DNA from: Escherichia coli
GTDB taxonomy: Bacteria; Pseudomonadota; Gammaproteobacteria; Enterobacterales; Enterobacteriaceae
Length of the DNA stretch: 64,000 nucleotides
Reading direction: 5' to 3' (one strand)
Assembly: GCF_022846255.1 (NCBI RefSeq)
Contig: NZ_AP025682.1
Below, in pieces: positions 55,601 through 61,600 of this stretch. Made by a program: the position numbers. How positions within the stretch are numbered: the first letter of the stretch is position 1; every line of letters begins with the position of its first letter.

Positions 55601-58600
55601 TGCCGCAAATCGCCAACTTGCCGATATTGCCACCAGGAAAGAACAGCGGGTCGATGACGTAGCTGTCGGTGGAGAACGCCAGACGGTCGCCTTCCGCTAC
55701 CAGCTGCGCCAGATCAAGACGGGCCTGATCTTCCTGCTCTGCCAGCCACGGGTTGGCAAAGGCTTCCATAAACAGGCTGTTGATTAATTGCTGCATCGCC
55801 TGGCCGCCGCTACCGTGGGCGAGTTGGATATTATTCACGCTTCACTCTCCTGCTGACGATACTGATACCACGCGGCGCACGCTCCTTCGGAGGAAACCAT
55901 CAGCGCACCAAACGCGGTTTGAGGATTACAGGTGTTACCAAACAGCGGGCATTGATGCGGCTTACATTTGCCCGTTAATACTTCTCCACAACGTGCGCGC
56001 GGGTCATCGCAGACCTGCTGCGGTGCCGGGCGGAAATGCGCTTCGGCATCGAATCGTTGATAATCCGGCGTCAGGTGTACACCAGAAGATTCAATCACGC
56101 CTAAGCCGCGCCATTCGCTGTCGCCGTTGACACAGAACACATCGGCAATCGCCTGTTGCGCCAGCAGGTTGCCGGCATCCGGCACCACCCGACGATACTG
56201 ATTCTCTACCTTGCTGTGGGCCGCTATTTTCTGCTCCACCAGCATGACCACGCCTTGCAGTAGATCAAGCGGTTCGAAACCAGCCACCACCAGCGGACGA
56301 TGAAAATCGCTGGCGATAAAATTATAGGCATCAGTGCCGATAACCATACTGACGTGGCCCGGCGCGAGGAACGCGTCGATACCGTTATCCGGCTGTTCCA
56401 GCAAACTGCGCAGCGTCGGGATAAGCGTAATGTGCTGGCAGAAGAAGTAAAAATTCTGCACATCGCGGGCTTTCGCCTGTTGCAGAGTGATGGCCGTCGT
56501 CGGCATGGTGGTTTCAAAACCTAAGCCGAAGAATACCACTTTACGGGTTGGATTCTCCTGCGCCAGTTTTAACGCATCCATTGGCGAGTAAACGATGCGC
56601 ACATCGGCACCGCGTGCTTTTGCCTGCAACAGCGACCCCTGTTTCCCTGGTACGCGCATGGCATCGCCAAAGGTACAGAAGATGACTTCCGGATGGCTGG
56701 CAATCTCCACGCAGGTGTCGATTCTACCCATCGGCAGTACACACACCGGGCAACCGGGACCGTGGATAAACTCGACGTTTTCCGGCAGCAACTGGTCGAG
56801 GCCGAATTTAAAAATGGCGTGGGTATGACCGCCACACACTTCCATAATCCGCAGAGGGCGTTCGGCGGTGTAAGAGAGATGTGAAGCACGTTCGCGCAGA
56901 TGCTCAATTAACTGCATCACCTGTTCCGGCGCGCGATATTCATCAACAAAACGCATTATTTTTCCTCGCCATACAACAGCGCACCGACATCCGGCTCAAC
57001 GTCAAACATGTTTTGTAAGGCGTCGAGAGTGTCGCGCGCTTCGGCTTCATTAATTACGCTCATGGCAAAGCCAACGTGAACCAGTACCCACTGGCCTACG
57101 CGTGGCTGACCGTTTTCATCGCAGCTGCCGACTAACGTTAAATCGACATCGCGCTGAATGCCGCAGACGTCGACTTTCGCCTGGTTGCCGTCAATGGTGC
57201 GGATCTGGCCGGGAACGCCTATGCACATCGCTGTGTCTCCAGCCAGTTCAGCCACTGGTCCATCCCTTCGCCGCTGGTGGCGGAAATAAGGATGATTTCA
57301 ATTTCTGGATTGACTTCGCGGGCGCAGGCGATGCACTTCTCAACGTCAAAGTTGAGATACGGCAGCAGGTCAACTTTGTTGAGCAGCATCAGTGAGGCGG
57401 CGGCAAACATATGTGGATATTTCAGCGGTTTGTCTTCACCTTCGGTAACGGAAAGCACCGCCACTTTGTGTTTTTCACCGAGATCGAAGCTCGCCGGACA
57501 TACGAGGTTGCCAACGTTTTCGATAAACAGAATACCGTTATCGTCCAGTGGCAGGCGCGGCGCGGCGTCGGCGATCATCTGTGCGTCAAGATGGCAGCCT
57601 TTACCGGTGTTCACCTGAATTGCTGGGGTGCCGGTAGCGCGAATGCGTGCGGCATCGTTCACGGTTTGCTGGTCACCTTCAATAACCGCGCACGGAACGC
57701 TGTCTTTCAGGCGCATTAAAGTTTCCGTCAGCAGGGTGGTTTTACCGGAACCAGGGCTGGAAACCAGGTTGAGCACCAGTTGCTTGCGGGCAGCAAAGCG
57801 CGCGCGGTTGCGTTCAGCCAGACGGTTATTTTTGTCCAGCACGTCAATTTCGACTTCCAGCATCCGACGCTGGCTCATGCCCGGCGCGTGAGTGCCCGCT
57901 TCGCCATGACCGTAATGCAGGTCGCCTTCTTCAGTCTGGCTGGGGGTAAATTCAGGCGCTTTAATGCCGGTGATTTTCATCTTCGGGCGTGCCGCCGGGG
58001 CAAATGGCGCGCTACGAAACGCGGAATGAGGGTTATGTTCATCACCCTCAATATAGAGGTTGCCTTCACCGCAACCGCATGTTGTACACATCGCTCACTC
58101 CTGGTCTATTTCTATCCGCCGAATCTGTAAACCGTCGTCTGCCACAATCTGTAGCATGTCACCATGACACAGTGGACAGCGGCGGACGCGCTGGGTCAGT
58201 AGCGTCACATACTGTTGGCATGTTTCACACCAGCATTCGGCCTCTTGTTCTTCGAGGTGCAGTTTACAACCTTCCGCCACGCTGCCGCGGCAAACCAGAT
58301 CAAAACAAAAGGCAAGAGAGCTGGTTTCGACACAAGAAAATGCGCCAATTTTGAGCCAGACCCCAGTTACGCGTTTTGCGCCGTGTTTTGCGGCCTGCTG
58401 TTCGATCAATTCCAGTGCCCGTTGGCAGAGGGTTATTTCGTGCATATCGCCTCCCATTAACTATTGCCAGCTACAAGCAATAATTGTGCCAGTGTTGATT
58501 ATCCCTGCGGTGAATAATGTCGATGATGTCGAAATGACACGTCGACACGGCGACGAAATTCATCTTTAGCTTAGAAATCGCTTTAATAACAATGAATTAA

Positions 58601-61600
58601 AAGTTGGCACAGAAAATGCTTAAAGCTGGCATCTCTGTTAAACGGGTAACCTGACAATGACTATTTGGGAAATAAGCGAGAAAGCCGATTACATCGCACA
58701 GCGGCATCGTCGCCTACAGGACCAGTGGCACATCTACTGCAATTCGCTGGTTCAGGGGATCACGTTATCGAAAGCGCGCCTGCATCACGCCATGAGCTGC
58801 GCGCCGGACAAAGAACTCTGTTTCGTCCTTTTTGAACATTTTCGCATTTACGTCACCCTGGCGGATGGCTTTAACAGCCACACCATCGAGTATTACGTCG
58901 AAACAAAAGATGGCGAAGACAAACAGCGGATTGCGCAGGCGCAGTTGAGCATTGACGGCATGATTGATGGCAAGGTCAACATCCGCGATCGCGAACAAGT
59001 TCTGGAACACTATCTCGAAAAAATCGCTGGCGTTTACGACAGCTTATATACCGCCATTGAAAACAATGTGCCGGTGAATTTAAGCCAACTGGTAAAGGGA
59101 CAAAGCCCGGTAGCATGAGCTGAGGCTTTGCTCGTTTTGCAGGCGTTACGCCTGTTTGGGGATGGGCGTGTCGATGAGTGTCGAAAATGACATTTCATCG
59201 GCATGTTTTCGTCAAAAATGACAATCACCTGAGGAATGCCTGGTGAATCGTTTTGTAATTGCTGACTCCACGCTCTGTATCGGCTGCCACACCTGTGAGG
59301 CCGCCTGTTCAGAGACGCATCGCCAGCACGGCCTGCAATCAATGCCGCGCCTGCGAGTGATGCTAAATGAAAAAGAATCTGCGCCGCAGCTCTGTCATCA
59401 CTGTGAAGATGCACCCTGCGCGGTGGTCTGCCCGGTTAACGCCATCACCCGCGTTGATGGGGCCGTGCAGTTGAATGAAAGCCTGTGCGTAAGCTGCAAA
59501 CTGTGTGGCATCGCCTGCCCGTTTGGCGCAATTGAATTTTCCGGCAGCCGTCCGCTGGATATTCCGGCAAACGCCAATACCCCGAAAGCGCCACCGGCAC
59601 CGCCTGCTCCGGCGCGTGTCAGCACATTGCTTGACTGGGTGCCAGGTATTCGCGCGATCGCCGTCAAATGTGACCTTTGTAGCTTTGATGAACAAGGTCC
59701 GGCCTGCGTGCGGATGTGCCCGACTAAAGCCCTGCATCTGGTGGATAACACCGATATCGCCCGCGTCAGCAAACGTAAGCGTGAGCTGACTTTTAACACG
59801 GACTTTGGCGATCTCACCTTGTTTCAGCAGGCTCAAAGTGGAGAGGCTAAATGAGCGCAATTTCCTTGATCAATAGTGGCGTGGCGTGGTTTGTCGCCGC
59901 CGCTGTTCTGGCATTTCTCTTTTCTTTTCAAAAAGCGCTAAGTGGCTGGATAGCCGGAATTGGCGGCGCGGTGGGTAGCCTGTATACGGCAGCCGCGGGC
60001 TTCACTGTGCTGACTGGCGCGGTTGGCGTGAGCGGTGCGCTGTCGCTGGTAAGCTACGATGTGCAAATCTCTCCGCTTAATGCGATTTGGCTGATTACAC
60101 TCGGCCTATGCGGTCTGTTTGTCAGCCTCTACAACATTGACTGGCATCGCCACGCGCAGGTGAAGTGCAACGGCTTGCAGATCAATATGTTGATGGCTGC
60201 CGCCGTCTGTGCCGTCATCGCCAGCAACCTCGGCATGTTCGTGGTAATGGCTGAAATTATGGCCTTGTGCGCGGTGTTCCTTACCAGCAACAGCAAAGAG
60301 GGCAAACTGTGGTTTGCGCTGGGGCGTCTTGGCACTCTGCTGCTGGCGATTGCCTGCTGGCTGCTGTGGCAGCGTTACGGTACGCTGGATCTGCGCCTGC
60401 TGGATATGCGTATGCAACAGCTGCCGCTCGGTTCCGATATCTGGCTGCTCGGTGTGATTGGCTTTGGCCTGCTGGCCGGGATTATTCCGCTGCACGGCTG
60501 GGTGCCACAGGCACATGCTAACTCCTCTGCGCCAGCTGCCGCGCTGTTTTCCACGGTAGTCATGAAAATTGGCCTGCTGGGCATTTTAACTCTGTCACTG
60601 CTGGGCGGTAATGCACCGCTGTGGTGGGGGATCGCACTGCTGGTACTCGGCATGATCACCGCATTCGTCGGCGGTCTGTATGCGCTGATGGAACATAATA
60701 TCCAACGTCTGCTGGCTTACCACACCCTGGAGAATATCGGCATTATCCTGCTGGGGCTGGGCGCTGGCGTAACGGGTATCGCGCTCGAACAACCGGCGCT
60801 GATTGCCCTTGGTCTGGTTGGTGGTCTGTACCATCTGATTAACCATAGCCTGTTCAAGAGCGTACTGTTCCTTGGTGCGGGGAGCGTCTGGTTCCGTACC
60901 GGTCATCGCGATATCGAAAAACTCGGTGGTATTGGCAAGAAAATGCCGGTTATCTCCATCGCCATGTTAGTCGGGCTGATGGCAATGGCTGCGCTGCCGC
61001 CGCTGAACGGTTTTGCCGGGGAATGGGTTATCTATCAATCCTTCTTCAAACTGAGCAATAGTGGCGCGTTTGTTGCCCGTCTTCTCGGGCCGCTGCTCGC
61101 CGTGGGGCTGGCAATTACCGGTGCGCTGGCGGTGATGTGTATGGCGAAAGTTTATGGCGTTACTTTCCTCGGCGCGCCGCGTACCAAAGAAGCCGAAAAC
61201 GCCACCTGTGCGCCGCTCCTGATGAGCGTAAGCGTAGTGGCACTGGCGATTTGCTGCGTAATTGGCGGTGTTGCTGCGCCGTGGCTGCTGCCGATGCTCT
61301 CTGCTGCTGTACCTCTGCCGCTGGAGCCTGCTAACACCACCGTTTCTCAACCAATGATCACGTTGCTGCTGATTGCCTGCCCGCTGCTGCCATTCATCAT
61401 TATGGCGATTTGCAAAGGCGATCGTTTGCCGTCGCGTTCCCGCGGCGCGGCCTGGGTGTGCGGCTACGACCATGAAAAATCAATGGTGATTACCGCTCAC
61501 GGTTTTGCCATGCCGGTGAAACAGGCGTTTGCGCCGGTGCTGAAACTGCGCAAATGGCTGAATCCGGTGTCGCTGGTGCCGGGCTGGCAGTGCGAGGGGA

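What the first reader, a model, noticed from the sequence alone, without database searches (positions are those of the whole stretch)
58458..58656. Divergent sigma-54 promoter pair in the hypA-hycA intergenic region
TGGCAC-N5-(T/A)TGC elements are present on both strands (58605-58620 for hyc, 58475-58490 for hyp), matching the known FhlA- and formate-dependent divergent control of the two operons. Together with the intact fhlA this indicates a functional formate hydrogenlyase regulon.
Basis: partly seen in the sequence, partly recalled or inferred. Interest (0 to 1): 0.25.

Follow-up and report, generated by a model that had tools for sequence, protein, structure and literature searches.

The report
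Known divergent sigma-54 hyc/hyp promoters
The two back-to-back sigma-54 promoter elements between hypA and hycA are real, but they are the textbook E. coli formate-regulon promoters described in 1990 and since confirmed genome-wide, so the finding is correct and ordinary.

Summary
The window is E. coli: the 501 bases around the site are 100% identical to Nissle 1917 and others. The 211-bp hypA-hycA spacer (58446-58656) carries two outward-facing sigma-54 elements. CTGGCACAATTATTGCT lies at 58476-58492 on the minus strand, toward hypA. TTGGCACAGAAAATGCT lies at 58604-58620 on the plus strand, toward hycA.

In K-12 the hyp element is identical and the hyc element differs by one spacer base. Both are published sigma-54 ChIP-seq sites flagged as experimentally confirmed promoters, and hypA has the highest occupancy score in that paper's table of intergenic sites. 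Both elements keep invariant GG and GC, and a fixed distance to the start codons, in 79 of 79 orthologous loci across Enterobacteriaceae.

Between them lie two more elements:
- The densest YGTCR/YGACR cluster of the whole window (58514-58558). The same kind of cluster occurs upstream of fdhF and hydN, so I read it as the FhlA enhancer.
- A conserved IHF-like site (58587-58599).

fhlA is intact (692 aa, 685 identical to K-12).

Corrections: the hyp coordinates are off by one, and the spacer starts at 58446, not 58458. "Functional regulon" overreaches, because fdhF, hydN-hypF, hycF-I and rpoN lie outside the window.

Verdict: already known, low interest.

The parts
58476..58492 (-). hyp sigma-54 promoter, CTGGCACAATTATTGCT. 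GG is at 58490-58489 and GC at 58478-58477.
   Evidence: Exact match. Best matrix score in the window, 21.15 bits. Identical to K-12 ChIP-seq site OS28, hypA, occupancy score 201. GG and GC are invariant in 79/79 orthologous loci.
58465..58465 (-). Predicted hyp transcription start, taking the C of GC as -12. This gives a 20-nt leader to the hypA ATG at 58445.
   Evidence: Inferred from motif geometry. The 20-nt distance equals that in Bonocora Table 1, which is also a predicted start. Not mapped here.
58450..58454 (-). hypA Shine-Dalgarno sequence GGAGG, 4 nt before the ATG at 58445.
   Evidence: Sequence. CCTCC is almost invariant in the 80-sequence alignment.
58095..58445 (-). hypA coding sequence (116 aa).
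   Evidence: ORF, RefSeq annotation, Pfam HypA 2.5e-30.
58514..58558 (.). Inferred FhlA enhancer (UAS). Pentamers: TGTCG at 58518, TGTCG at 58527, TGACA at 58535, CGTCG at 58540, CGACA at 58543, CGACG at 58551. It is an imperfect palindrome centred near 58533, 68 bp from the hyp start and 98 bp from the hyc start.
   Evidence: It is the densest YGTCR/YGACR cluster of the whole window: 6 in 45 nt against a mean of 0.36, and only this spot reaches 6. The same clusters occur upstream of K-12 fdhF and hydN, and 5-8 occur in every orthologous spacer. The core 58517-58544 is highly conserved. FhlA binding itself was not tested here.
58587..58599 (+). IHF-like site TAACAATGAATTA (consensus WATCAANNNNTTR, 1 mismatch), between the enhancer and the hyc -24 element.
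   Evidence: By itself the match is at chance level: 55 found and 55 expected in the window. But the CAA and TTA positions are conserved. Enterobacter, Kluyvera, Kosakonia and Pseudescherichia carry a perfect AATCAAnnnnTTA at this position, and Klebsiella and Raoultella a one-mismatch version. The hydN promoter shares the block TAAATAACAGTAAATTAAAAACTGGCA. IHF as an activator of hyc and hyp is from the literature.
58604..58620 (+). hyc sigma-54 promoter, TTGGCACAGAAAATGCT. GG is at 58606-58607 and GC at 58618-58619.
   Evidence: Exact match. 15.20 bits, rank 3 in the window. K-12 ChIP-seq site OS27 (hycA, occupancy score 91) differs by one spacer base. TGGCA and TGC are invariant in 79/79 loci.
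58631..58631 (+). Predicted hyc transcription start, with a 26-nt leader to the hycA ATG at 58657.
   Evidence: Inferred from motif geometry. The 26-nt distance equals that in Bonocora Table 1, which is also a predicted start. Not mapped here.
58657..59118 (+). hycA coding sequence (153 aa), the first gene of the hyc operon and the antagonist of FhlA.
   Evidence: ORF, annotation, Pfam HycA_repressor 1.3e-90.
52676..54754 (-). fhlA coding sequence (692 aa), the enhancer-binding activator and last gene of the hyp-fhlA transcription unit.
   Evidence: Intact ORF. GAF, Sigma54_activat, AAA lid and HTH_8 domains. 685/692 identical to K-12 FhlA with no gaps.

Best explanation
This is the E. coli hyc-hyp control region. 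It holds two outward-facing sigma-54 (-24/-12) promoters 111 bp apart, with an FhlA enhancer and an IHF site between them.

How it works, partly shown and partly inferred:
- RNA polymerase with sigma-54 sits on both promoters as a closed complex (shown by ChIP-seq in K-12).
- When formate accumulates anaerobically, FhlA bound to the TGTCG/CGACA repeat cluster near 58533 hydrolyses ATP and opens either promoter by DNA looping.
- IHF bends the DNA on the hyc side to help the loop form.
- One promoter drives hycABCDEFGHI (hydrogenase 3 and the antagonist HycA). The other drives hypABCDE-fhlA (maturation proteins and the activator itself). This gives one positive and one negative feedback loop.

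Shown here: the elements, their scores, positions and conservation, the repeat cluster, and an intact fhlA. Taken from the literature: sigma-54 occupancy, and dependence on FhlA, formate and IHF. Inferred: the exact start sites (58631 and 58465), and which part of the repeat cluster serves which promoter.
For: - Sequence and matches.
- Leave-out matrix ranks 1 and 3 of 127,968 positions. Exact tail probabilities.
- Locus identity (hypA, hycA, hypB-E, fhlA).
- Near-identity with the K-12 spacer, 4 substitutions and none in GG or GC.
- Published sigma-54 ChIP-seq peaks OS27 and OS28, flagged as confirmed promoters. gSELEX peak.
- Salmonella: ChIP-chip sites at the same two places, with 26-fold (hyc) and 5.6-fold (hyp) sigma-54-dependent expression assigned to FhlA.
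- Both elements are present in 79/79 orthologous spacers. The hyc element ends 34-37 nt before the hycA ATG. The hyp element ends 28-34 nt before the hypA ATG, apart from one locus at 42. GG and GC are invariant while the spacers vary.
- The enhancer cluster is unique in the window and shared with fdhF and hydN.
- No sigma-70-type promoter in a useful orientation.
- fhlA is intact.
Against: - The mapped 5' ends (Lutz et al. 1990) could not be read, so the agreement on leader lengths (26 and 20 nt) is with predicted starts, not mapped ones.
- The hyc element's score alone is within chance for 64 kb.
- The FhlA consensus CATTTCGTACGAAATG, as quoted in a review, fits neither this region nor fdhF nor hydN better than random DNA. 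The best fit has 7 mismatches, which is the most common value for random 211-nt stretches. The enhancer assignment therefore rests on my own repeat-cluster analysis.
- The IHF match alone is at chance level.
- The enhancer centre is only about 68 bp from the hyp start, which is short for looping.
- Nothing was measured in this strain.
Confidence: 0.95

Rival explanations
1. There are two adjacent enhancers rather than one shared enhancer. The left repeats (58518-58539) would serve hyc at about -103. The right repeats (58540-58559) would serve hyp at about -84. Each promoter would then use the site farther from it.
For: The E. coli cluster splits into two short tandem pairs: ATAATGTCG/ATGATGTCG and GACACGTC/GACACGGC. 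FhlA enhancer centres at fdhF and hydN lie about 117 and 104 bp upstream of the predicted starts. A site at -68 for hyp would therefore be unusually close. From my own recollection, unverified here, the primary literature speaks of more than one FhlA site in this spacer.
Against: The right-hand part (58551-58562) is poorly conserved and is deleted in about a quarter of the orthologous spacers. Those spacers still keep both promoters. The conserved core (58517-58544) is a single imperfect palindrome centred near 58533.
Confidence: 0.3
2. The motifs are chance or non-productive sigma-54 binding sites, and hyc and hyp are really transcribed from other promoters.
For: Most sigma-54 ChIP sites in E. 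coli are transcriptionally silent under the conditions tested. A 15-bit match is expected about 0.5-2 times per 64 kb. A separate FNR-bound region lies inside hypA.
Against: Both sites keep position, orientation and invariant GG/GC in 79/79 loci across many genera. EcoCyc lists both as experimentally confirmed. A promiscuous activator induces both operons in a sigma-54-dependent way in Salmonella. No sigma-70-type promoter faces either gene in the spacer.
Confidence: 0.02
3. The sigma-54-like element inside hycA (58725-58741) is a third, internal promoter. It would transcribe hycB-I without the antagonist gene hycA.
For: It has the second-best matrix score in the window (16.2 bits), is in the sense orientation, and is identical in K-12. 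The motif scores 12 bits or more in 62/80 species. Functional intragenic sigma-54 promoters exist elsewhere in E. coli.
Against: The motif is dictated by the conserved peptide W-x-x-Y-C (TGG ... TAY TGY). In 19/80 species the Cys codon is TGT, which destroys the -12 GC, so the DNA motif itself is not under selection. No ChIP-seq peak is listed there, although the study resolved the hycA and hypA peaks 139 bp apart.
Confidence: 0.05

Closest known systems
E. coli K-12 hycAp and hypAp, the divergent NtrA (sigma-54)-dependent promoters of the hydrogenase 3 gene cluster (Lutz, Bohm, Beier and Bock 1990, Mol Microbiol 4:13; cited)
   Same: Same locus, same gene order and same 211-bp spacer. The hyp 17-mer is identical and the hyc 17-mer differs at one spacer base. 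The GG and GC dinucleotides, the repeat cluster and the spacing are all identical.
   Different: There are four substitutions, all in the hyc-proximal half: 58574, 58580, 58594 and 58612. One falls in the IHF-like site and one in the hyc spacer. No functional consequence is predictable, and the hyc matrix score drops from 16.9 to 15.2 bits.
Salmonella Typhimurium hycA/hypA sigma-54 promoters (Samuels et al. 2013, PMC3844500)
   Same: A divergent pair at the same positions, bound by sigma-54 in ChIP-chip, with both operons sigma-54 dependent and assigned to FhlA.
   Different: TGGCAT replaces TGGCAC in both elements, and the spacer bases differ.
Other FhlA-dependent promoters: fdhF and hydN-hypF of E. 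coli K-12
   Same: A sigma-54 element plus an upstream cluster of YGTCR/YGACR repeats. hydN also shares the A/T-rich IHF-like block immediately upstream of TGGCA.
   Different: They are single promoters, not a divergent pair. Their enhancer centres are farther from the start, about 104-117 bp against 98 (hyc) and 68 (hyp).

Membership tests
sigma-54 (-24/-12) promoter | GG and GC dinucleotides exactly 10 bp apart within TGGCAC-N5-TTGCW | tested here: met
   hyp is TGGCACAATTATTGCT with 0 mismatches. hyc is TGGCACAGAAAATGCT with 1 mismatch, A for T at -15.
sigma-54 (-24/-12) promoter | Score within the range of verified sigma-54 sites on an independent matrix | tested here: met
   21.15 and 15.20 bits. 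The 40 training sites range from 8.9 to 19.2 bits with a median of 16.0.
sigma-54 (-24/-12) promoter | Lies upstream of a gene, faces it, and leaves a short leader | tested here: met
   The elements end 36 nt before the hycA ATG and 30 nt before the hypA ATG. This is conserved in 79/79 loci, at 34-37 nt for hyc and 28-34 nt for hyp apart from one locus at 42.
sigma-54 (-24/-12) promoter | Occupied by sigma-54 holoenzyme | not testable with these tools
   Published for the identical or near-identical K-12 sequences: ChIP-seq occupancy scores 91 and 201, and gSELEX. Not measured in this strain.
sigma-54 (-24/-12) promoter | Transcript 5' end about 12 nt downstream of the GC | not testable with these tools
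   The primary mapping paper is not held. Only predicted starts were available. EcoCyc status is 'confirmed', as relayed by Bonocora et al.
FhlA (formate) regulon promoter | Cognate enhancer-binding protein present and intact | tested here: met
   fhlA is 692 aa with GAF, sigma-54 interaction and HTH_8 domains, 99% identical to K-12.
FhlA (formate) regulon promoter | Upstream activating sequence shared with other FhlA targets | tested here: met
   The YGTCR/YGACR cluster is unique in the window and recurs at fdhF, hydN and all orthologous spacers.
FhlA (formate) regulon promoter | Match to the published FhlA consensus CATTTCGTACGAAATG | tested here: inconclusive
   The best match has 7 mismatches, which equals the mode for random 211-nt stretches. 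The consensus fits fdhF and hydN equally badly, so as quoted it does not discriminate.
FhlA (formate) regulon promoter | Formate- and FhlA-dependent transcription | not testable with these tools
   Literature only.
IHF-assisted enhancer-promoter looping | IHF consensus site between enhancer and promoter | tested here: inconclusive
   TAACAATGAATTA has 1 mismatch and the match is at chance level by itself. Its key positions are conserved, and Enterobacter, Kluyvera, Kosakonia and Pseudescherichia carry a perfect consensus there. Binding was not tested.

The most novel reading that the evidence does not exclude
The geometry of the control region may be under selection for helical phase. Across 79 Enterobacteriaceae loci the distance between the two promoter elements falls into classes of 89, 99-100 and 109-113 bp. 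The insertions and deletions of about one helical turn are confined to the stretch between the enhancer core and the IHF-like site. In Klebsiella, Kluyvera and Raoultella, a 12-bp insertion inside the enhancer is offset by a deletion of about 10 bp downstream. If this is real and not yet described, it would be a natural experiment on face-of-helix requirements for one enhancer serving two sigma-54 promoters.
Probability: 0.15. Interest if true: 0.3.

Novelty: already known. Interest (0 to 1): 0.07.

Why it matters
It matters little beyond annotation. The finding confirms that this strain carries the canonical control region of the formate hydrogenlyase genes, with no disruptive change in either promoter, in the enhancer or in fhlA. 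That is what one would want to know before assuming normal fermentative hydrogen production. It adds no new biology, because the promoters, their activator and their sigma-54 occupancy have been published for K-12 and Salmonella.

Tried and rejected
- **Published FhlA consensus.** Scoring the spacer, the hycA/hycA-hycB region and the K-12 fdhF and hydN upstream regions against CATTTCGTACGAAATG gave nothing above chance. I replaced it with a repeat-density test.
- **IHF consensus scan.** At one mismatch there were 55 matches against 55 expected, so the match alone is uninformative.
- **Primary papers.** Hopper and Bock 1995 (PMC176951) is not held. Lutz 1990 appears only in reference lists. Further searches for mapped start sites returned only the genome-wide studies and reviews.
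- **Internal hycA sigma-54-like site as a third promoter.** Rejected as most likely a by-product of the W-x-x-Y-C codons.
- **Sigma-70 promoter scan of the spacer.** It found one match on the wrong strand, at chance frequency.
- **27-nt inverted repeat linking the two promoters** (58465-58491 and 58605-58631, 78% complementary). The part beyond the -24/-12 elements (GCTGGCA at the start sites) is poorly conserved on the hyc side, so I give it no functional reading.
- **Rfam scan of the whole window.** It found only a sok RNA far from the site.
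Full report
**What is there.** Window 58300-58800 is E. coli. It matches 5,425 of 5,426 complete E. coli genomes and is 100% identical to Nissle 1917 and other strains. On the minus strand lie hypA (58095-58445), hypB, hypC, hypD, hypE and fhlA (52676-54754). On the plus strand lie hycA (58657-59118), hycB, hycC and onward until the window ends inside hycE.

The spacer is 211 bp, 58446-58656. The annotated start at 58445 is the one preceded by a conserved GGAGG.

**The observation.** TGGCACAGAAAATGCT is at 58605-58620 on the plus strand, as stated. The exact pattern TGGCAC-N5-WTGC occurs three times in the window against 0.51 expected.

I built a 17-column matrix from the 40 other intergenic sigma-54 sites of Bonocora et al. 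2015, leaving out hycA and hypA. The hyp element is the best of 127,968 positions (21.15 bits) and the hyc element is third (15.20 bits). Expected numbers per 64 kb are 0.0015 and 0.45 for independent bases, and somewhat higher in dinucleotide shuffles.

The hyp element therefore stands on its score alone. The hyc element needs context. It ends 36 nt before the hycA ATG, on the right strand.

**Independent evidence that both are real promoters.**
- The K-12 spacer differs at four positions, none in GG or GC. The hyp 17-mer is identical and the hyc 17-mer differs by one spacer base.
- These K-12 sequences are ChIP-seq peaks OS27 (hycA, occupancy score 91) and OS28 (hypA, 201, the highest in the paper's table of intergenic sites). 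Both are flagged as experimentally confirmed in EcoCyc.
- The spacer is also a sigma-54 holoenzyme gSELEX peak.
- In Salmonella the same two positions bind sigma-54. The two operons are induced 26-fold and 5.6-fold in a sigma-54-dependent way and are assigned to FhlA.
- I fetched 80 hycA loci from one genome per species. All 80 have hypA divergent from hycA. In the 79 that my spacer extraction handled, both elements are present. The hyc element ends 34-37 nt before the hycA ATG. The hyp element ends 28-34 nt before the hypA ATG, apart from one locus at 42.
- TGGCA and TGC are invariant while the spacer bases change.
- No sigma-70-type promoter faces either gene.

**What lies between the promoters.** The stretch 58514-58558 holds six YGTCR/YGACR pentamers in 45 nt. 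It is the densest such cluster in the whole window (mean 0.36), and only this spot reaches six. It forms an imperfect palindrome centred near 58533.

The same kind of cluster lies upstream of the K-12 fdhF and hydN sigma-54 promoters, and 5-8 pentamers occur in every orthologous spacer. The core 58517-58544 is the best-conserved non-promoter block. I read it as the FhlA enhancer. That reading is an inference, because binding was not tested.

The consensus CATTTCGTACGAAATG quoted in a review does not discriminate any FhlA target from random DNA.

Between the cluster and the hyc -24 element is TAACAATGAATTA (58587-58599), one mismatch from the IHF consensus. Alone it is at chance level. However, its CAA and TTA positions are conserved, several genera have a perfect AATCAAnnnnTTA there, and the hydN promoter shares the block.

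**Mechanism.** The mechanism is the standard one for this locus.
- Sigma-54 holoenzyme waits as a closed complex on both promoters.
- Formate-activated FhlA at the central enhancer opens them by looping, with IHF bending the DNA on the hyc side.
- One transcript makes hydrogenase 3 and HycA. The other makes the maturation proteins and FhlA itself.

Predicted starts are 58631 (26-nt leader) and 58465 (20-nt leader). These match the distances in Bonocora Table 1, which are themselves predictions. Whether one enhancer serves both promoters or two adjacent ones cross over cannot be settled here. Conservation favours a single core.

**The regulon claim.** fhlA is intact and 685/692 identical to K-12, with all domains present. 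hypA-E and hycA-D are also intact. But fdhF, hydN-hypF, hycF-I and rpoN are outside the window, so 'functional regulon' is plausible and unproven.

**Comparison and novelty.** This is the divergent NtrA-dependent promoter pair described by Lutz et al. in 1990 (cited). It is already known. The only mildly new observation is that spacer lengths across Enterobacteriaceae change in steps of about one helical turn. I did not pursue this further.

Noticed in passing
window 58725-58741 (+), inside hycA: GTGGCACATCTACTGCA is the second-best sigma-54 matrix score in the window (16.2 bits), in the sense orientation and identical in K-12. It is encoded by the conserved peptide W-x-x-Y-C. In 19 of 80 species the Cys codon is TGT, which removes the -12 GC, and no ChIP-seq peak is listed there. 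It is probably a coding by-product.
   Followed up: yes
window 61061-61077 (+), inside hycC: GTGGCGCGTTTGTTGCC is the published weak intragenic sigma-54 ChIP-seq site IS31 of K-12 (occupancy score 1). It is present unchanged here and scores 11.9 bits on my matrix.
   Followed up: partly
window 63662-63678 (+), inside hycE: CTGGCACAACAGATGCG is the fourth-best sigma-54 matrix score (14.1 bits), in the sense orientation, and is not in the published ChIP-seq list. Four of the seven best scores in the 64-kb window fall on the plus (sense) strand at or within the hyc operon.
   Followed up: no
window 52203-52631 (-): A 142-aa protein made of two TOBE (molybdate-binding type) domains is encoded 44 nt downstream of fhlA on the same strand. 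K-12 lacks it, and 1,893 of 5,426 complete E. coli genomes have it. Molybdate-ModE is reported as a secondary activator of hyc, but I did not test any link.
   Followed up: partly
window 58396-58430 (-), inside hypA: The published FNR ChIP-seq summit (2,848,688 in U00096.2) maps to about 58426. A TTGAT half-site lies at 58410 down to 58406. This fits the known FNR-dependent internal promoter that feeds hypB-E and fhlA independently of the sigma-54 promoter.
   Followed up: partly
L003-L082 spacers, aligned to window 58492-58604: The distance between the two promoter 17-mers falls into classes of 89 (3 loci), 99-100 (18) and 109-113 bp (59, counting the window itself). The indels lie between the enhancer core and the IHF-like site. 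In Klebsiella, Kluyvera and Raoultella a 12-bp insertion inside the enhancer is offset by a deletion downstream. The steps are about one helical turn.
   Followed up: partly
window 58465-58491 and 58605-58631: The two promoters form a 27-nt inverted repeat, 78% complementary, that extends past the -12 element to a shared GCTGGCA at the predicted start sites. That part is poorly conserved outside Escherichia on the hyc side.
   Followed up: partly
L001 3377-5455 (Nissle 1917 RefSeq annotation): RefSeq labels the fhlA gene 'flhA' ('formate hydrogenlyase transcriptional activator FlhA'). This is a gene-symbol slip that could be confused with the flagellar export gene.
   Followed up: no
window 28537-28694 (+): A sok antitoxin RNA (Rfam RF01794, 112 bits), apparently next to a Hok/Gef family ORF if the window is colinear with the Nissle annotation. 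It was the only Rfam match in the window.
   Followed up: no
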